A program made the position numbers and the translations under genes. Shown here one piece after another: positions 8,853-36,395 of a stretch of 40,015 nucleotides of DNA (position 1 is the first letter of the stretch; each line of letters begins with the position of its first letter). Location of the stretch: the sequence record PV889368.1; one strand, written 5' to 3'. The stretch is from a phage. The notes below the pieces were generated by a model, which searched no databases, was not told the DNA's origin, and saw only the letters and a program-made list of their open reading frames with translations.

Positions 8853-11210
8853 TTAGACGGAACGAGCTTTCTTAGCGTATGACGCCTCCCAGCCACACCC
8901 AACGATGGACACTGGGGTAGGATAGTCTGACTCTAAGGTTAGACTCGTGGTTAATGCGTTACCATTCATAGCGAAGCGATACTGACCATCCCCAATGTTG
9001 GTAGTCCCGATGGTTTGCTGACCAAGGGTGTACCCGTTGAAGGTATTCACGAACTCCCGCTCACCGTTTCTGACAATGAGTCTCAGAGCGCCAGTGTCCC
9101 TGTAGTTGACCCAAGCCCGACGAAGCTGTAGACGACCAGTGTCTTCAGACTGAGTGCCACTATCATCTTCAATCTTAATCAGGAACCGTGAGAACTTGTA
9201 GGACATCAGATAGGACCGTCCGATGAACACTGTATGTCCTGACCAATCGCCGTTGAGGGTAATCACAGTAGAGATACTGGTCAAGTCCCCAAGGTCCACA
9301 TAAGCACCCTGACTGTCAATCAGATAGTACCGACCGGGAGACGGAGCGTTGCCACCATAAGCAGAACCAATGTCAACCGTAGTCTTATAGGTGTCAACGT
9401 TGTATGAGCCAATTGGTATTACCATAGACACCTTGGAGTCAACGTGGAGTCTATACGGCTCTAATGGAAAGTCAGTTGCCTCCTTGATGAACTTAAGGTG
9501 CTCAAGGTCCACTCCGCCTTGGTGCTGACGAACAATGAACATGGTAGAGCCAATCGACGCAGACGCCAGAATCTTATCAGCTTTAGGGAACTCCCAGTGC
9601 GACCAAGAGGCTTGAAGCTGTACGCCGTCCTTAAACAAGAACTTGTAGATGTAGATTCGGTTGTATGCACCTGTAGAGTTGACGCAGATGTAGTTCTCAG
9701 TTCCTGTACCTTGAATGTCAAAAACCCCGTTAGGAATATAGGACAGTACGTGGCCAGTGGTATCATCAGCATCCTTCACATCAGACACATCCGCTACAGC
9801 GAAGTATCGCTTAATGCTGGTGAATGATCCACGAGGCGCTGAGAAGAAGACTGAGCGTCCTACAGCGAATGGTCTGGCATTATCGCCTAAGGCAAACTCT
9901 GAGCCTACATCAAGCTGGATAGACTTCGAGGTAAGGACCCCAGAGCTTGTCATTACGAACTGAACCTCATCCGACCAAAGTAGTAGCTGCTCGCTAAACG
10001 GAACGGCATACTTAAGGATTGAGATTCTAGGGTGACTTACAGCTACATCAATAGGGTCATCATCACTCAGTGTCGCCACACTCTTAGGGAAGAACGCAAA
10101 GTAGCTGGCTGAACGGCTCATGATTACATTCTCACCAGACAAGAACCCAAGTCTGTTCCTGTAGAAGAACACATCATTAATCGCAGCATCCACGAAGCTA
10201 GGCATAGGGTTTGTGTCATCGTTACCAGCACCACGCTTGGACCAATCCAGAGTCTTGAACTCAAAGGAGCCATCAGACTGTCTTACCAGAGCATGTGGCA
10301 TTGTGGTTACATCGAACCCAGTGACAACTCCCGGCTCCACTGTCTCCTTCCACGTCTTAGTGTTGGAGTCATACATCACGTAGTATTCATCGGCGCTACT
10401 GTTTGTCTCACCTTGAATCTTAATGATATACCCATTAGGAGCTGCAAGAGGTAGCTTAGAGATTGTCTGCACAGTGTCTAGGACTGGGCTTATTAGCTGG
10501 TTAGCGTACCCATCCTCCGTCTCCACTGAGTTAATGTCGGTCCCTGAAGGAGCTGTGATTAGCAGGAAGCCAGACCCAAGGTCAAACGTGAAGGTCGGAT
10601 AGGAAGCAACAAGAAGGTCTCTCAGAGCTGCACCAATGGCTTGAGCGTCCACCTTAGGTGGGTCATTCTCGGCATCATTACCTGCTGGTAGCTTATGCAC
10701 GACCTTAACGCCACCGTTGATTCCCACCTTAAGGGTTCGACCATACTGTCCACCACGCAGGTTAATTAAAGCTCGTGATTTGCGGTTATAACCAGAGTGT
10801 GACTTCTCGCTTCCACCTTTGACGACAACCTTACGGTTAACGACGAACGTATAGTCTGCCACGGTAACGACACGGATGTCATCTCGTGGGTTGGAGGACT
10901 TAACGTAATCTACCGAACCTGACACTGAGTATTGATTGCCACTCAAGTCAACTACCTGAACGTTGGACCCGTTGAACACGATGTAATACTGCTCATGCTC
11001 GTCACGGTTAATCAGGTGGAACTTAGGGTTGCTCCCAACGTCGATGTTAAGACGTCGCTTGAAGACTGTAGGTGGGCGCTTCTGGAGGCCATCACTCTCG
11101 GATGACCAGCAGTTAACCTGTGCCTCGCCTTGGTCTGAGAACCTCAGTATATCAGGCTGCTGGCTAATGCCACCTTTAAGATTTTTTATGCTTTGCGTGA
11201 TAAGCGGCAT
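8853..11210 (-). CDS. Tail tubular protein B (gp12)
   Basis: N-terminus MPLITQSIKNLKGGISQQPDILRF matches T7 gp12 MALISQSIKNLKGGISQQPDILRY; also GRLQLRRAWVNY and IVGCGWE near the C-terminus. Confidence 0.93.
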   Translation of the reverse strand: MPLITQSIKNLKGGISQQPDILRFSDQGEAQVNCWSSESDGLQKRPPTVFKRRLNIDVGSNPKFHLINRDEHEQYYIVFNGSNVQVVDLSGNQYSVSGSVDYVKSSNPRDDIRVVTVADYTFVVNRKVVVKGGSEKSHSGYNRKSRALINLRGGQYGRTLKVGINGGVKVVHKLPAGNDAENDPPKVDAQAIGAALRDLLVASYPTFTFDLGSGFLLITAPSGTDINSVETEDGYANQLISPVLDTVQTISKLPLAAPNGYIIKIQGETNSSADEYYVMYDSNTKTWKETVEPGVVTGFDVTTMPHALVRQSDGSFEFKTLDWSKRGAGNDDTNPMPSFVDAAINDVFFYRNRLGFLSGENVIMSRSASYFAFFPKSVATLSDDDPIDVAVSHPRISILKYAVPFSEQLLLWSDEVQFVMTSSGVLTSKSIQLDVGSEFALGDNARPFAVGRSVFFSAPRGSFTSIKRYFAVADVSDVKDADDTTGHVLSYIPNGVFDIQGTGTENYICVNSTGAYNRIYIYKFLFKDGVQLQASWSHWEFPKADKILASASIGSTMFIVRQHQGGVDLEHLKFIKEATDFPLEPYRLHVDSKVSMVIPIGSYNVDTYKTTVDIGSAYGGNAPSPGRYYLIDSQGAYVDLGDLTSISTVITLNGDWSGHTVFIGRSYLMSYKFSRFLIKIEDDSGTQSEDTGRLQLRRAWVNYRDTGALRLIVRNGEREFVNTFNGYTLGQQTIGTTNIGDGQYRFAMNGNALTTSLTLESDYPTPVSIVGCGWEASYAKKARSV

Positions 11211-19135: not shown

Positions 19136-19291
19136 TTAATGACATTCTTTCCACGTGGGTCCAATCTTACCCTCAGTATCAAGAACACATTTAAAGTTAT
19201 AGAACTCACCCACCTTACGCATAGCAAGTTGAGCAATCTTGACGACTTCTTCGGCAATCTCCTGAGTACGACACGCAATTTGTAACTCATC
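19136..19291 (-). CDS. DNA polymerase gp5, exon 2 (C-terminal 51 aa)
   Basis: Translates to DELQIACRTQEIAEEVVKIAQLAMRKVGEFYNFKCVLDTEGKIGPTWKECH, matching the T7 DNAP C-terminus DEIQVGCRTEEIAQ...NFRCLLDTEGKMGPNWAICH; in frame with exon 1 once the intron is removed. Confidence 0.8.
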   Translation of the reverse strand, partial: DELQIACRTQEIAEEVVKIAQLAMRKVGEFYNFKCVLDTEGKIGPTWKECH

Positions 19292-19641
19292 CTTTCTGTA
19301 TTCTCCCATTACTGGAAGTGTCGGACTATATCATCAGTCTTTGAGGTGACTGTCTGGCGCTTCGGGTTACGTGGGAATCTCACCCACGGCCCTACTCCTT
19401 TCGGATAGTCTCTACGCCTTCCACTCTCTAATCCACCCACAGGCGGCTGAGAACGCCACATTGAATATTTCGGAAGTATCCATCCTGATTCAATTTATGT
19501 GACGTAGGGATTATGCAGCCAGTCTCAGTGGCCTCAAGAATTAACTTCTTGCCTCTCATACATCCTCCCTATGGCTTGGCTCGGTATTGTCCCATTAGGA
19601 GTTCACCGAGTTCACCAGATTTAATGTGCACCATGATGTTA
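19292..19641 (-). ncRNA. Candidate ORF-less group I intron (350 nt) interrupting the DNA polymerase gene
   Basis: Exon 1 ends in U (..GUGCAU); the intron contains GUGCAC able to pair with it including a terminal U-G wobble (P1); the last intron base is G; R-like GUAGAGACUAUCC and S-like GAUAUAGUCC elements occur in that order ~30 nt from the 3' end; no ORF inside. Confidence 0.7.
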
Positions 19642-21657
19642 ATGCACCCATGCCATGTACGCAAAGTCACCTTCCCAGCCGTGAACATACCCTGCCTCTT
19701 CGAGCATACGTTCAGTCTCCACAATCCAGTGCTTACAGACTACCGCACCATCACCTTGAAGTAAGGCGTTCAGTGCTGAGTGTGGAGACCGGATGTGGAT
19801 ACGGCGACCATCAAGTCCACGCAACCAACGGCGCTTCCACTTGACGATATTCTCACCGTCCACCCACTTAGAGTCCGAGATTAACGTATTACTCACAGCT
19901 TCCCTGAGGTCCTTGATGGCTGGTGTACCCTCAATGAATTTCTTCATGAGAGCTGAACCTTCCTTCTTACCACCTCCTACTATCAGTCCAATCTTAGCGG
20001 CCCCTGCACCATACAGGAACGCATAGATGAACGTCTTAGCGTTGTTACGGAAAGCCTCATGGTCGTGGTTAGACTTATCGCGTGGGACGTTAGGTGCTAA
20101 CCCAGCGTTTACTGCGTTGGCCCAGTGGATGTCACCTTCGACCACAGTCTTCGCATAGTCACCACCATCAAACGGAGCCGCTCGGTTCCCCAGACAACGA
20201 AGCTCAAGACCTGAGGCATCCACACCCACTTGAATCCAAGGGTCTGGCTTACCATCCGTCTTGTTCCAAGCTGCACCGAAAGCACCACGGCAAGTCTCAC
20301 CATATGGAGCACCGTTAGCCGGGACCTGAGCCATGTTTGGTGCGCTATGAGTCGCACGTCCGGTTACTGCCCCGCATGGGTTGATTGAACCGTGCATACG
20401 TCCGTCTGGACCTACAAGTTTCAACCATGCGTTCTTACCTTCAGCCGCCTGACCGATTCGCTTCTGTACTACCAGATACTCACGGACCAGCTCTACGCAA
20501 GCCTGAGCCTCTGCGTCTGGTAGCTTAACGTGTTCTAACGTCTCGTCATCGACTACAGGTTTCCCGGTGTCAGTGAAGTCAACAGGCTCCCAGCCACGCT
20601 CCATCAAGACTTTTGCCAAGTGGTCTCCGCTTCCCGGATTAAACTCAACGTAAATGATTGGCGTGAATGGTGCTCCCTCCATCGTGTCTCGCGTATCGAG
20701 TTCACAAGGTTCAAGACCTAAGCGTTGAGCTTTGTTCTTCGGCTTCTTAAATATGCCACCGACCTTAGGATACACGACTCGCGGATACTTCGGAAGGTCC
20801 TTACCTGTCCGTGGATGCCTGAAGAACTCCTTGCCACCCTTCGGTGCGTACCAGCTACCGAAAGTCGAACGCAGCTTGTCAAGCAACTCCGCACGCTTGA
20901 CGGTGAGTTCACGATATAAGCCTTCGACCATCTCGGTGTTCATCGGATAGCCATTACGTTCCATCTTCGCACAGGTCCACGCAGCATCATGTTCCAGACG
21001 CAACGCATAAATCTGGTCGAAAGCGAACTGTTCAGACTGGAAGTAATACTTGTCAGTCAGGAACTTCTTGAACAACGCCAGTGTGACCACAACGTCTTGA
21101 ACGTTATAGTCCAGCATCTCCTGAGACGGGAACAACCATTCGTCCCCAGCCTTATATTCGATACCTTCAGCCTTGCACTTGGCAATGTAATCGTGTTTGT
21201 ACTCACCTTTCATCTCACCGAGACGATAACCCCAAGCCTCAAGAGATTGACGTCCCATCATATTAGGTGGCAGACGACCAGCTTTCACCGCGCCCATGTC
21301 GGAGAACTTAATGTTTGGATACATCAAGCGGCCCAGCACCAAGGTATCAATCATCTTGTGTTTCGGGAAGTTAAAGCGTTTCCCAAAGTACAGACGCTTC
21401 AGCTTGTCAATAGCCGGGACGTCGTAGTTGATACCGTTGTGGAATACCAGCATACCATCAGGTGATGCGGCAATCTCTTCCACCTTCTGCACATACTCTT
21501 TGAAGCCCCCGACGATACCGACCATCGGAGCTACCCCATACTTAAGGGTCTCATTCGACTCGGCGTTAATCAGGACCCCACAGTGGAACTGGGATACTGT
21601 ATCAAGGAGACCGTTTGTCTCGATGTCAGAACCCCAGATACTCTTAAGGTCAAACAT
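19642..21657 (-). CDS. DNA polymerase gp5, exon 1 (672 aa)
   Basis: Start moved to ATG 21657 (GGAGGA RBS); GSDIETNGLL, FHNG..YDVPA, EAWGYRLGEMKGEYK, GRATHSAPNMAQVP, GLELRCL, NAKTFIYAFLYGAG and GDFAYMAWVH match T7 gp5; TAA follows WVH where T7 continues. Confidence 0.92.
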
Positions 21658-23646: not shown

Positions 23647-23669
23647 CCATCCCTAAGGTGATAGTTTAG
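23647..23669 (-). promoter_or_regulatory. Phage RNAP promoter variant (phi4-like)
   Basis: Minus strand CTAAACTATCACCTTAGGGATGGG; differs from the consensus at two positions. Confidence 0.6.
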
Positions 23670-23881
23670 GCTTTGAAGAACTGAGCCAATTGGTCAGCTT
23701 TGGTGTCAGCTTGACGTGCCTTCATGCCAGCTTCCAGTGACGCGATGGTCAGCTTGTCAGCCAGAGCAGCAGCATCAGCCGCACCATCAGCAGTCTTCTT
23801 TTCTACCTTTCGTTCCAGTACCGCAGCACGACGATAACCACGCACCACCAGACGACCAAGAAATTCGATAAGTTTAATCAC
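23666..23881 (-). CDS. Hypothetical protein (71 aa) in the gene 3.8 position
   Basis: The ORF track entry 23666..23971 overlaps lysozyme by 66 nt; trimmed to GTG 23881 with AAGGAG RBS 9 nt upstream. Confidence 0.45.
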   Translation of the reverse strand: MIKLIEFLGRLVVRGYRRAAVLERKVEKKTADGAADAAALADKLTIASLEAGMKARQADTKADQLAQFFKA

Positions 23882-23904
23882 TGAGTTGTTCTCCTTATAG
23901 TTTA

Positions 23905-24363
23905 TTAGCCTCGGTCGGAAGTGACCAGTTCGTTGGTAGTCAACCAGCGTTGCAAGTCGAAACTTGGACACGCCTTCGGTGCTATGTCATGATGTGCTTT
24001 GATTTCTGCCTGAGGATACAGGGCCTTCAGGTCAGCCAGCTTGTTGCGCAGGGAGTCCATCTGGGCTGGAGTGAAGTTAGCTTCAAACTGACCCTTAGCG
24101 TTGATTCCACCTACAAGGCAGACGCCTACAGACCGTGAGTTCCAGTCCTTAACGTGTGACCCTACGACATTTACCGGACGTCCCTCTTCCACAGTCCCAT
24201 CGCGTTTGATGATAAAGTGGTAGCCAATTGCCAGCCAGCCCTGCTGCTTATGCCACATCTCAATGGTCTCACGACCAATGTCCATAGTCGGCGGGGTCGC
24301 TGAACAGTGGACGAAGATTGCGTCTGTAGCTTGACGCGGTTTGAATTGTACCTTACTTCCCAT
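23905..24363 (-). CDS. N-acetylmuramoyl-L-alanine amidase / T7 lysozyme (gp3.5)
   Basis: VQFKPRQATDAIFVHCSAT, GYHFIIKRDGTVEEGR, GVCLVGGI, FTPAQM and C-terminal HHDIAPKACPSFDLQRW..NELVTSDRG match T7 gp3.5. Confidence 0.95.
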   Translation of the reverse strand: MGSKVQFKPRQATDAIFVHCSATPPTMDIGRETIEMWHKQQGWLAIGYHFIIKRDGTVEEGRPVNVVGSHVKDWNSRSVGVCLVGGINAKGQFEANFTPAQMDSLRNKLADLKALYPQAEIKAHHDIAPKACPSFDLQRWLTTNELVTSDRG

Positions 24364-24826
24364 TGTAAACCACCAGTTCTACTACCACCAGATTCAGATG
24401 TGACTGGAAGCGCTGTGCGTCAGTCGTGTGCATCTGGAGCAACTTATGGTTGAAGACGTGAGAGTTGCTAATCTTCACGTACACTTCGTCAGGCTTACCG
24501 TGGACGATGAACGTCTGACCTACACCAATCTTGTTGATGGTCAGGACTTCACGTTTAACGGTGACAGGAGGGACACTAGAGGCTGGCAGGACTTGAGGTT
24601 TATCCTCTACGATTTCCTCAAGATTTCTTTCTAAAACCCACGCCCCCCACATACCGTCAGGCTGAGTGTCATGACCTGCTGCTCCGTGTTTGTAGGCTCC
24701 ACGCTCAGTGGATTCCACCAGAACAAGTCCAGGTGATGGTGCAGGGTCTTTCGCACATTTCGTAACGATAGTACCTTTGGGCCACCCGTAGCCACTAACC
24801 TTAAGTCTATATTTCTGAGTCATCAT
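24353..24826 (-). CDS. Hypothetical protein (157 aa) inserted between endonuclease I and lysozyme; no T7 counterpart
   Basis: ATG with AAGGAG RBS, ATGA overlap with the gp3 stop and overlap with the gp3.5 start, i.e. tightly embedded in the operon. Confidence 0.6.
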   Translation of the reverse strand: MMTQKYRLKVSGYGWPKGTIVTKCAKDPAPSPGLVLVESTERGAYKHGAAGHDTQPDGMWGAWVLERNLEEIVEDKPQVLPASSVPPVTVKREVLTINKIGVGQTFIVHGKPDEVYVKISNSHVFNHKLLQMHTTDAQRFQSHLNLVVVELVVYNGK

Positions 24827-25275
24827 TTAACTCCTTTCTTCTTGGGAATGAGTATACCTGAAGGCAGACGTACAGTCTCCTCCCGCAGCCACTCAACCGG
24901 GATGAACTTATCGGCATACTTATAGCCGTTCTTTTCGCACCATGCGCCATACGTGGTCGGAGACCCTTTGTATAGCTTGGAGCGGGAACTTGAGAACACG
25001 AACCGAATGTCTAACTCGGGGTGCTGTTCTCGTACCAGAAGGTGCTTCTTCCTGTCATCTGAGTCGAAGATACCTTTGGTCTCCACGATGATACCGTTAG
25101 GAAGGATAAAGTCTGGTGTGTACTTGTGGTCGGAAGCCGGAATCACATAGTTGATATAATGGCTTTCGTACTCCGCTTTGACGCCGTTCTGTTCCAGCCA
25201 CTGCTGGTTCTTGGCTTCAAGTCCAGAGCGGTAGGCACCCACAGAGTGCCCCCGTTTTGCAGACCATTGGGCCAT
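24823..25275 (-). CDS. Endonuclease I (gp3), Holliday junction resolvase
   Basis: VGAYRSGLE, YVIPASDHKYTPDF, LPNGIIVETKG, SDDRKKHLLVREQHPELDIRFVFSSSRSKLYKGSPTTYG match T7 gp3. Confidence 0.95.
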   Translation of the reverse strand: MAQWSAKRGHSVGAYRSGLEAKNQQWLEQNGVKAEYESHYINYVIPASDHKYTPDFILPNGIIVETKGIFDSDDRKKHLLVREQHPELDIRFVFSSSRSKLYKGSPTTYGAWCEKNGYKYADKFIPVEWLREETVRLPSGILIPKKKGVK

Positions 25276-26013: not shown

Positions 26014-26036
26014 CTGTCCTACAGTGATAGTTTAGG
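26014..26036 (-). promoter_or_regulatory. Phage RNAP promoter variant (phi2.5-like)
   Basis: Minus strand CTAAACTATCACTGTAGGACAG. Confidence 0.65.
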
Positions 26037-35852: not shown

Positions 35853-36395
35853 TTACTTGTGGTTTCTATGGGTCCTATCACGCTTAGGGGACCGTCGGTT
35901 TACTGCGTATTCCTTGTGCTTCTCAGTGCGTAGAGCATCAAGCCACACCTCTAGTTCCTCTATTGAATCTGAGGTCTTCGTGAAGCACTTACCTTGTAGG
36001 CGCAACTGAGCGCGATACTTTCCGGTAGGCTTGAAAAAGCTGATACCTTTGGGTAGACCATTAGTCTCGCCACCTCCTGAGTTCCATCTGTTCTCTAATG
36101 CTGTTACTAACCTGTAGTTATCTGGCCTGTCGTCAAGTCTATCACCATTGATATGGTCAACCATCATGCCAGAAGGTATACGACCCACTACTAGGCTGTA
36201 GATGATTCTGGCACGCCTATAGCGGCTACCAAGAACCTTCACGATTGCGTACCCAGACGGATGGACTGAATGTCCCATGACCTCGCCTGGCTTCTTGTTA
36301 GAGCCTTTATAGGGCTTCTTGCACACCAACTCACCATCTACATAAGCATAGTGATTAAAGAGGGCCACCCTGTCGATGGCCTTCTGTTTACTCAT
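35853..36395 (-). CDS. HNH homing endonuclease with an AP2-like DNA-binding domain (180 aa)
   Basis: HNH motif region VDHINGDRLDDRPDNYRLVTALENRWN; GISFFKPTGKYRAQLRLQGK resembles an AP2 domain; ATG with GGAGGA RBS 14 nt after the terminase stop. Confidence 0.8.
   Translation of the reverse strand: MSKQKAIDRVALFNHYAYVDGELVCKKPYKGSNKKPGEVMGHSVHPSGYAIVKVLGSRYRRARIIYSLVVGRIPSGMMVDHINGDRLDDRPDNYRLVTALENRWNSGGGETNGLPKGISFFKPTGKYRAQLRLQGKCFTKTSDSIEELEVWLDALRTEKHKEYAVNRRSPKRDRTHRNHK

What the first reader, a model, noticed from the sequence alone, without database searches (positions are those of the whole stretch)
24353..24826. Unknown 157-aa gene inserted between endonuclease I and lysozyme
T7 has genes 3 and 3.5 adjacent. 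Here a 157-aa ORF with a strong RBS is wedged between them, with ATGA overlap at its 5' end and overlap with the lysozyme start at its 3' end, a sign of translational coupling and a real gene. The sequence matches no family I recognise. Its position in the DNA metabolism/lysis module makes it a candidate accessory gene (moron).
Basis: partly seen in the sequence, partly recalled or inferred. Interest (0 to 1): 0.55.

Follow-up and report, generated by a model that had tools for sequence, protein, structure and literature searches.

The report
K1F-type gene 3.2, function unknown
The ORF is a real, selected gene, the ortholog of phage K1F gene 3.2: it is present in essentially every K1F-like phage, makes a small two-barrel protein of unknown function with a swappable front half and a fixed back half, and is already annotated, so it is a modest lead and not a discovery.

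Summary
On the minus strand, a 156/157-codon ORF (24353..24826) lies between endonuclease I and the lysozyme/amidase. It has an AAGGAG ribosome-binding site, an ATGA/TGATG overlap with the gene 3 stop, and an 11-nt overlap with the lysozyme start. T7 has no counterpart.

It is not a sporadic moron. The window is a Kayfunavirus genome and the ORF is the ortholog of K1F gene 3.2 (PHROG 16385, function unknown). Its C-terminal domain is found in 220 phage records, against 221 records with a Kayfunavirus-type endonuclease I. It has no promoter of its own and no compositional anomaly. Its dN/dS is 0.12-0.14, the same as its enzyme neighbours.

The protein is two small SH3-like beta-barrels. The basic C-terminal barrel (residues 87-156) is the fixed core and also occurs alone as a 74-aa protein. 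The N-terminal barrel (1-74) is a sharply bounded exchangeable cassette, with at least six unrelated versions in otherwise 97-100% identical genomes. Every member examined, including relatives at 35-60% identity, directly follows endonuclease I.

No homolog, fold match or paper gives a function. My best guess, at low confidence, is a non-enzymatic adaptor: the fixed barrel docks on a conserved partner and the cassette faces a variable host factor.

The parts
24353..24823 (-). Gene 3.2 CDS (156 codons plus TAA stop at 24355-24353).
   Evidence: ORF list and sequence; phrog_16385 E 9e-94; homologs are 156 aa starting MTQ; K1F gene 3.2 ortholog.
24831..24836 (-). Shine-Dalgarno AAGGAG for gene 3.2, lying inside the 3' end of gene 3. 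It is 7 nt from the ATG at 24823 and 4 nt from the ATG at 24826.
   Evidence: Read from the sequence; AGAAAGGAG is present upstream of the start in most of the loci listed, with variants in the divergent ones.
24602..24823 (-). N-terminal module, type A (residues 1-74). SH3-like beta-barrel and an exchangeable cassette.
24566..24601 (-). Pro-rich linker (residues 75-86, KPQVLPASSVPP), shared by proteins carrying different N-modules. It marks the 3' boundary of the cassette.
   Evidence: Alignments A1 and A4; identity recovers to 98-100% from about 24560.
24356..24565 (-). Conserved C-terminal domain (residues 87-156). A basic small beta-barrel carrying the invariant signature VYVKISNSHVFNH..LQMHTT...RF. 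This is the fixed core of the family.
24361..24374 (-). SD-like GGTGG (24374-24370) and the ATG (24363-24361) of the lysozyme gene, embedded in the last codons of gene 3.2. The overlap is 11 nt.
   Evidence: Sequence; an 11-nt overlap in 25 of 29 loci.
24823..25275 (-). Gene 3, endonuclease I, the invariable upstream neighbour. Its stop overlaps the gene 3.2 start.
   Evidence: PF05367 E 3e-81; 64% identical to T7 gp3; immediately precedes gene 3.2 in every locus examined, including distant ones.
23905..24363 (-). Gene 3.5, amidase/lysozyme, the downstream neighbour.
   Evidence: PF01510 E 1.6e-16; 66% identical to T7 gp3.5.
26014..26036 (-). Phage RNA polymerase promoter (phi2.5 type) that heads the transcription unit 2.5-3-3.2-3.5-3.7.
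   Evidence: Exact 23/23 match to a promoter annotated in CR44b.
23648..23670 (-). The next phage promoter, upstream of gene 4. No phage promoter lies between it and 26014-26036, so gene 3.2 has none of its own.
   Evidence: Two mismatches to an annotated CR44b promoter.

Best explanation
What it is (near certain). This is gene 3.2 of a K1F-like (Kayfunavirus) phage. It is a middle-class, non-structural gene, co-transcribed from the phi2.5 promoter and translationally coupled to endonuclease I upstream and to the lysozyme downstream.

How it is built (shown). It encodes a soluble 17-kDa protein made of two small SH3-like beta-barrels joined by a Pro-rich linker. The basic C-terminal barrel of about 70 aa is the fixed, strongly selected core and can exist alone. 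The N-terminal barrel is optional and is exchanged between phages by recombination.

How it most likely works (inferred, low confidence). It is a binding protein and not an enzyme. The conserved basic barrel docks on a conserved partner during the DNA-metabolism phase. That partner is either nucleic acid or the co-translated endonuclease I. The interchangeable N-terminal barrel engages a target that differs between hosts, and so tunes or redirects the core function from strain to strain.
For: Identity: phrog_16385 E 9e-94, and the annotated K1F, EcoDS1 and CR44b orthologs in the same position.

Real and selected: dN/dS is 0.12-0.14 for the C-domain, equal to the lysozyme (0.12-0.14) and endonuclease I (0.15), with multiple synonymous codons at invariant residues.

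Core gene: 220 records carry it, against 221 with a Kayfunavirus-type endonuclease I.

C-domain as the core: it occurs alone as 74-76 aa proteins, and natural N-terminal truncations and frameshifts keep it intact.

Basic charge of the C-barrel: pI 8.1-10.1 across the family.

Cassette behaviour: at least six N-module types show no detectable relationship (hhalign probability below 20%). The boundaries are sharp in genomes that are 97-100% identical on both sides. Tandem A+B modules exist in 226-aa forms. The N-modules occur nowhere else in phage genomes.

Link to endonuclease I: a 4-nt or 1-nt stop/start overlap in 27 of the 30 loci scored (the endonuclease stop was not located in the other three). 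The same position holds in four divergent relatives at 35-60% identity, in one of which two extra ORFs separate it from the amidase.
Confidence: 0.35

Rival explanations
1. A host-takeover or counter-defence inhibitor with no functional link to endonuclease I. The conserved barrel binds and blocks a conserved enterobacterial protein, for example one of the targets handled in T7 by genes that have no homolog here. The N-terminal cassettes are add-on decoys or inhibitors that track strain-specific defence systems.
For: The N-module is the most divergent segment of the region, even between closely related phages, and is replaced wholesale. Its dN/dS is higher, at 0.32. Module types show some host bias: C' is in Salmonella Typhi/Paratyphi phages, C is mostly in Enterobacter phages, and A is mostly in E. 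coli phages. The window lacks detectable homologs of T7 host-directed genes 0.7, 1.2, 4.5, 5.5 and 5.9. The protein is small, phage-restricted and in no family.
Against: A genus-wide core gene under purifying selection as strong as that on replication enzymes is atypical for counter-defence genes, which are usually patchy. About 100 of the 220 phages carry no recognised N-module. No library of anti-defence proteins was available, and PADLOC, which holds defence systems only, gave nothing. The fixed position after gene 3 in distant lineages is left unexplained.
Confidence: 0.25
2. A dedicated regulator of endonuclease I, acting as an inhibitor, chaperone or specificity factor. It is made in fixed ratio with the toxic junction-resolving nuclease and either restrains it or directs it towards host DNA.
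For: The stop/start overlap with gene 3 is invariable, including in distant relatives where the downstream neighbour differs. Record counts for gp3.2 and for Kayfunavirus-type endonuclease I are nearly equal. The small basic barrel could bind DNA junctions.
Against: T7 and about 1,270 other phage records with an endonuclease I at 42-69% identity do without such a partner. No structure of a complex could be predicted here. It does not explain why a regulator of a conserved enzyme would need interchangeable N-modules.
Confidence: 0.2
3. A lysis accessory protein. On this reading the SH3-like barrels bind the cell wall, like bacterial SH3b domains, and assist the amidase encoded by the overlapping downstream gene.
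Against: Those matches are no better than matches to dozens of unrelated SH3-like proteins. No SH3b or other cell-wall-binding Pfam family matches. There is no signal peptide or membrane segment in the sequence. Adjacency to the amidase is broken by an HNH gene in PH1061 and by two ORFs in MN855780, while adjacency to gene 3 is kept.
Confidence: 0.05
4. One reading: a recently acquired, self-contained accessory gene (moron) specific to this phage or to a few relatives.
For: The gene is absent from T7, where genes 3 and 3.5 abut. The N-terminal half is horizontally exchanged.
Against: It is present in essentially all Kayfunavirus genomes and in some more distant T7-like phages. It has no promoter or terminator of its own. 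Its GC content equals that of the flanks. It is under strong purifying selection.
Confidence: 0.04

Closest known systems
Gene 3.2 of coliphage K1F (NC_007636, 9706-10179; YP_424930), also gp3.2 of EcoDS1 and gene 3.01 of CR44b/CR8; PHROG 16385 (full length) and PHROG 15211 (C-domain alone)
   Same: Same position between genes 3 and 3.5, with the same 4-nt and 11-nt overlaps. Same length (156-157 aa). Same type A N-module (56% identical to K1F, 81% to CR44b) and a near-identical C-domain.
   Different: Nothing essential; this is a sequence variant, and its closest records are 96-97% identical in DNA. The family has no assigned function in any database or in any paper held here.
SH3-like small beta-barrel fold (eukaryotic SH3, KOW, Tudor, FeoA, ribosomal L2 SH3-like domain, EF-P domain I)
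   Different: Sequence identity is 2-25%. No SH3, KOW or Tudor Pfam model matches. The similarity is of fold class only and implies no shared ligand. The C-domain match is below the level usually taken as reliable.
T7 class II small host-directed proteins (for example gp2, gp5.5, gp5.7, gp5.9)
   Same: A small, non-structural protein expressed in the same middle or DNA-metabolism block of a T7-like genome.
   Different: No sequence relationship to any T7 ORF in any frame. The modular architecture of fixed barrel plus exchangeable barrel is, to my knowledge, not described for those proteins.
Modular phage proteins with a conserved anchor and an exchangeable specificity module, such as tail fibres and tailspikes of T7-like phages (an analogy only, from general knowledge)
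   Same: One part is fixed across the genus. The other part is replaced wholesale by recombination at conserved flanks, in otherwise near-identical genomes.
   Different: Here the protein is a small cytoplasmic middle-gene product and not a virion protein. The variable part is N-terminal and can be absent altogether. There is no evidence that it determines host range.

Membership tests
K1F gp3.2 family (PHROG 16385 / 15211) | Significant full-length match to the family profile | tested here: met
   phrog_16385 E 9e-94, residues 2-157 on profile 1-157; phrog_15211 E 3.4e-40 for residues 88-157.
K1F gp3.2 family (PHROG 16385 / 15211) | Position directly after gene 3 (endonuclease I) with stop/start overlap, and before gene 3.5 | tested here: met
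   Window coordinates. The arrangement in K1F is the same, with gene 3 at 9257-9709, gene 3.2 at 9706-10179 and gene 3.5 at 10169-10627. It holds in 27 of the 30 loci scored at the 5' junction (three unscored) and 25 of 29 at the 3' junction.
K1F gp3.2 family (PHROG 16385 / 15211) | C-terminal signature Y.V.SNSHVFN....QMHTT...RF | tested here: met
   Present at residues 115-139. It is invariant across 36 diverse members, including relatives at 27-39% identity.
SH3-like small beta-barrel (fold class) | Confidently modelled five- or six-stranded barrel that superposes on SH3-type domains | tested here: met
SH3-like small beta-barrel (fold class) | The same, for the C-terminal domain | tested here: inconclusive
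Canonical SH3 / KOW / Tudor / SH3b sequence families | Match to the Pfam models of these families | tested here: not met
   No Pfam family at E up to 1 for the window protein. Nothing recurs among 36 members at E up to 5.
   hmmsearch with both domain profiles against 817 six-frame T7 ORFs gives best E-values of 1.8 (C-domain) and 0.44 (N-domain). A T7 gp3.8-like HNH gene is elsewhere in the window, at 35904-36218.
HNH / His-Me finger nucleases (considered because of the SNSH..N.H..H motif next to a nuclease gene) | A beta-beta-alpha metal finger with His, then Asn, then His/Asn at family-typical spacing, and a match to HNH models or folds | tested here: not met
Moron (autonomous accessory gene inserted between core genes) | Own promoter and/or terminator | tested here: not met
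   Phage promoters lie only at 26036-26014 and 23670-23648, with none in or next to the gene. Sigma-70-like and terminator-like sites are not above the shuffle expectation, and none flanks the gene.
Moron (autonomous accessory gene inserted between core genes) | Patchy distribution among close relatives, and deviant base composition | tested here: not met
   220 records carry the C-domain, against 221 with endonuclease I at 80% identity or more. GC is 0.48-0.52 in the gene and 0.47-0.56 in the flanks. Only the N-module is patchy.
Known anti-defence proteins | Homology to a characterised anti-defence family | not testable with these tools
   No anti-defence library was available. PADLOC, which holds defence systems, gave no match, and BFVD fold matches are all uncharacterised proteins.

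The most novel reading that the evidence does not exclude
gp3.2 may define an undescribed class of modular cytoplasmic phage proteins. In this reading, one fixed docking barrel, bound to DNA or to the phage's DNA-processing machinery, carries interchangeable small barrels. Each of those recognises a different strain-specific host factor, such as a defence system. That would make it an intracellular counterpart of tail-fibre modularity, exchanged as a cassette between otherwise identical phages.
Probability: 0.2. Interest if true: 0.65.

Novelty: already known. Interest (0 to 1): 0.33.

Why it matters
As an ORF it is already in the databases (K1F gene 3.2, two PHROG families), so finding it adds nothing by itself. 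The anatomy worked out here is what makes it usable. It is a core gene of the genus and as constrained as the replication enzymes, yet nobody knows what it does. It is also fused to a cassette that is swapped between phages that are otherwise 97-100% identical. Kayfunaviruses are widely isolated as therapeutic candidates against E. coli K1, Salmonella Typhi, Enterobacter and Citrobacter. If the cassette tunes intracellular host compatibility, it would be a second determinant of host range after the tailspike. The natural near-isogenic phage pairs that differ only in this cassette are ready-made experiments. If instead the protein works with endonuclease I, it would be, to my knowledge, the first partner described for that much-studied junction-resolving enzyme.

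Tried and rejected
(1) Family searches gave nothing informative. Pfam, NCBIfam and PADLOC on the window protein and on diverse members returned no family, and only weak scattered Pfam hits appeared at E up to 5, such as Imm11 in 5 of 36 members with best E 0.037.

(2) An exhaustive phmmer search of 1.84 billion representatives gave only 17 hits. All are the same phage family, apart from one repetitive 849-aa sequence (P0158) that I dismissed as low-complexity noise.

(3) A profile search of PDB sequences gave a best E of 0.47 (an ETS domain), which I rejected.

(4) Fold searches gave generic SH3-like barrels in PDB and only uncharacterised phage proteins in BFVD.

(5) A hidden cis element or dual coding could have explained the conserved C-domain. 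I rejected this because synonymous variation is abundant, no phage promoter lies inside and no Rfam family matches there. Only the last few codons double as the SD and start of the lysozyme gene. Synonymous variation is somewhat reduced at codons 116-132, which I noted and left unexplained.

(6) The N-modules could have been fast-diverged homologs of one another or duplicates of the C-domain. I rejected this at the level hhalign can detect (all probabilities below 20%). The exception is the middle module of the 226-aa forms, which is type B (97%).

(7) The scan of bacterial and archaeal genomes gave one hit, in a Chloroflexota MAG. It lies antisense inside an mreB-like gene and is a chance pattern match.

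(8) An HNH or His-Me nuclease reading of the SNSH..N.H..H motif was rejected (see the membership test).

(9) The literature gave no functional statement. The term 'gp3.2' appears only in a table of Citrobacter phage ORFs (PMC4925675). The K1F genome paper is not held. Searches for essentiality screens or anti-defence work in Kayfunavirus found nothing relevant.

(10) The first full-length AF2 model failed on the C-domain (pLDDT below 50). It was rescued by a deeper alignment that included relatives at 27-61% identity.

Full report
OBSERVATION

The ORF is real and lies on the minus strand at 24353..24826. On that strand it follows endonuclease I (24823..25275; Pfam Phage_endo_I, E 3e-81) and precedes the amidase/lysozyme (23905..24363; Amidase_2, E 1.6e-16).

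The sequence shows AGAAAGGAGTTAAATGATGA. The SD AAGGAG is at 24836-24831. A first ATG at 24826 overlaps the gene 3 TGA as ATGA, and a second in-frame ATG at 24823 overlaps it as TGATG. The lysozyme ATG (24363) lies 11 nt inside the 3' end of the ORF, and an SD-like GGTGG for it sits within the last codons of the ORF.

Homologs are almost all 156 aa and start MTQ/MSK. In related loci the codon before that ATG is often GTG or part of AAATGA. The SD is 7 nt from the second ATG and 4 nt from the first. I therefore take 24823 as the likely start, giving 156 aa. T7 genes 3 and 3.5 do abut.

WHAT THE WINDOW IS

The window is a complete, circularly permuted, reverse-complemented genome of a K1F-like phage (genus Kayfunavirus). 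The ORF's DNA is 96-97% identical to phages TH16 and P762. T7 proteins gp1 to gp19 find their counterparts in T7 order on the minus strand. K1F-type phage promoters lie at 26036-26014 (before gene 2.5) and at 23670-23648 (before gene 4), with none in between. The ORF is therefore part of the transcription unit 2.5-3-3.2-3.5-3.7.

IDENTITY

The protein matches no Pfam, NCBIfam or PADLOC family. It does match PHROG 16385 over its full length (E 9e-94), and residues 88-157 match PHROG 15211 (E 3.4e-40). Both PHROGs are of unknown function.

It is the ortholog of K1F gene 3.2 (NC_007636, 9706-10179), which has the same 4-nt and 11-nt overlaps. The same gene is called gp3.2 in EcoDS1 and gene 3.01 in CR44b.

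The only paper held that uses the name lists it as an unannotated ORF (PMC4925675). The K1F genome paper is not held.

IS IT A SPORADIC ACCESSORY GENE?

No. A tblastn search with the C-terminal 70 residues finds 220 phage records. A tblastn search with the window's endonuclease I finds 221 records at 80% identity or more. The next 910 records all lie in the 60-80% band, and those sampled from it are at or below 69%. The two sets were compared by count and not record by record. The near-equality still shows the gene is present in essentially every Kayfunavirus and absent from the other roughly 1,270 endonuclease I-bearing records.

A few more distant T7-like phages carry diverged copies at 35-60% identity. 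In each one examined (MN855780 and three metagenomic contigs), the gene again starts 4 nt inside the end of the endonuclease I gene. This holds even where two extra ORFs separate it from the amidase.

Across the loci held, the start overlaps the gene 3 stop by 4 nt in 16 and by 1 nt in 11, and was not scored in 3. The lysozyme start overlaps the gene's end by 11 nt in 25 of 29.

The gene has no promoter or terminator of its own, and its GC content equals that of its flanks. It therefore fails every criterion for a moron.

The family does not occur outside such phages. An exhaustive search of 1.84 billion representative proteins gave 17 hits, all from this family apart from one repetitive artefact. 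A scan of 185,579 bacterial and archaeal genomes gave one chance match, antisense in an mreB-like gene.

ANATOMY

The protein has two parts.

Residues 87-156 form a domain that is almost unchanged across the genus. It keeps the signature Y.V.SNSHVFN....QMHTT...RF even in relatives at 27-39% identity. This domain also occurs on its own as 74-76 aa proteins in many phages. Natural truncations (87 and 107 aa) and a frameshifted copy keep it intact.

Residues 1-74 are one of at least six N-terminal module types, A to F, plus the type found in the distant clade. The types show no detectable relationship to one another or to the C-domain (hhalign probabilities below 20%). In 226-227 aa forms, two modules (A then B) precede the C-domain, and the middle module matches type B at 97% probability.

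Among the 220 records, type A (this window, and K1F) is in 56, type B in 27, type C in 10, a Salmonella Typhi/Paratyphi type in 21, and type D in 4. The remaining hundred or so carry the standalone form or rare types. Each module is found only at this locus.

Against phages whose genes 2.5 and 3 and whose C-domain are 97-100% identical to the window, DNA identity falls to about 40% exactly between 24826 and about 24600. It returns to 98-100% from about 24560. The N-module is therefore a cassette exchanged by recombination between two conserved flanks: the 3' end of gene 3 and the linker KPQVLPASSVPP. Even against phages with the same module type, it is the most diverged segment of the region at 72-85% identity.

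SELECTION

Invariant residues of the C-domain are encoded by two to four different codons across 26 distinct sequences. The conservation is therefore at the protein level and does not come from a DNA element or recent transfer.

Pairwise Nei-Gojobori estimates give the following dN/dS values:
- C-domain: 0.12-0.14
- Lysozyme: 0.12-0.14
- Endonuclease I: 0.15
- gp2.5: 0.10-0.19
- N-module type A: 0.32

The C-domain is thus as constrained as its enzyme neighbours, not more so, and the N-module is more relaxed but still selected. Synonymous variation is somewhat low at codons 116-132. I found no promoter, Rfam family or terminator there and leave this unexplained.

STRUCTURE

The C-domain is consistently basic, with pI 8.1-10.1 and net charge +1 to +5. 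The N-modules are neutral to acidic. No membrane segment or signal peptide is apparent in the sequence.

I considered an HNH or His-Me reading of the His/Asn-rich motif and rejected it. No model matches, the spacing is too tight, and the following short helix has no conserved metal ligand.

HOW IT MOST LIKELY WORKS

Four things are shown:
- It is a real, expressed-looking gene and is core to the genus.
- It encodes two small barrels, and the C-terminal barrel is the unit under constraint.
- The N-terminal barrel is an optional cassette that is exchanged horizontally.
- It always follows gene 3.

The mechanism is inferred. Small SH3-like barrels are overwhelmingly binding modules and not enzymes (general structural knowledge). 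I therefore read the protein as an adaptor. The fixed basic barrel docks on something that does not vary, which is either nucleic acid or the endonuclease I with which it is co-translated. The exchangeable barrel meets something that varies between hosts. I put this at about 0.35.

The main rival, at 0.25, is a host-takeover or counter-defence inhibitor unrelated to gene 3. The cassette behaviour favours it, but the gene's core status and strong constraint count against it, as does the roughly half of the genus that carries no recognised N-module.

A dedicated endonuclease I regulator (0.2) overlaps with the best explanation. It does not account for the cassettes, and T7 does without such a partner.

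A cell-wall-binding helper of the amidase (0.05) and the moron reading (0.04) are poorly supported.

None of these could be tested directly.

COMPARISON WITH WHAT IS KNOWN, AND NOVELTY

The gene is a member of the already annotated but uncharacterised K1F gp3.2 family, and all defining features tested are met. It is not related to any T7 gene.

At the fold level it belongs with SH3-like barrels, which says little about function. The description of the family is, as far as the held literature shows, new. That description covers the fixed C-barrel, the cassette-like N-barrel, the one-to-one occurrence with Kayfunavirus endonuclease I, and the constant position after gene 3 in distant relatives. 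The object itself is not new.

VERDICT

Interest is modest (0.33). It is a well-defined, experimentally tractable unknown in a therapeutically used phage genus, and natural near-isogenic cassette variants are available. There is, however, no evidence yet of a new mechanism.

Noticed in passing
window 19139-19668 (- strand): A group I intron (Rfam RF00028, 54.7 bits, E 2.5e-11) at 19302-19651 splits the DNA polymerase gene at the conserved WVH|DE motif. Exon 1 ends at about 19642 (...DFAYMAWVH). Exon 2 runs 19300->19139 and is 57% identical to the C-terminus of T7 gp5. From memory, self-splicing introns in DNA polymerase genes of T7-like phages have been described, but I did not check that here.
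   Followed up: partly
window ~24230-24380 (- strand), first ~45 codons of the lysozyme gene: A local mosaic patch. DNA identity is 72-78% to phages that are 93-100% identical on both sides. There are unusual residues (KPRQA, PPTMDIGRETIEMW, LAIG) that are partly shared with CR8 and with a metagenomic relative. In T7 the N-terminus of the lysozyme contributes to RNA polymerase binding (from memory), so this patch might matter. I did not pursue it.
   Followed up: partly
window 24434-24481 (codons 116-132 of gene 3.2): Synonymous variation is lower here than in the rest of the C-domain: 8 of 17 codons are invariant across 26 distinct sequences. No promoter, Rfam match or terminator explains it.
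   Followed up: partly
window 35853-36395 (- strand): An ORF of 180 aa with 35% identity to the T7 gp3.8 HNH endonuclease lies near the gene 19/19.5 region, not at the T7 position. It is probably a mobile homing endonuclease. Related phages carry HNH genes inserted right next to gene 3.2, for example PH1061.
   Followed up: no
window 23666-23971 (- strand): The 101-aa GTG ORF that overlaps the end of the lysozyme gene contains the ~70-aa gp3.7 (phrog_1950, E 1e-23; weak DUF5471 match). The true start is probably internal, since orthologs are 70-71 aa. This is another genus-typical gene of unknown function.
   Followed up: no
phage records MT350292 (Enterococcus phage EFA-1) and PV615262 (Acinetobacter phage vB_Aba_01KA): MT350292 matches this Kayfunavirus gene at 95% DNA identity (98.6% for the C-domain protein), and PV615262 matches the C-domain at 78.6% protein identity. 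Both have the same gene neighbourhood as here. Their labelled hosts look doubtful for enterobacterial K1F-like phages.
   Followed up: no
protein P0150 (metagenomic) and the ESh23 record ON528733: Natural frameshifted or 'nonfunctional' copies of gene 3.2 exist. In P0150 the N-module is read in another frame and the C-domain is restored in frame. This could be sequencing error or a tolerated loss of the N-module.
   Followed up: no
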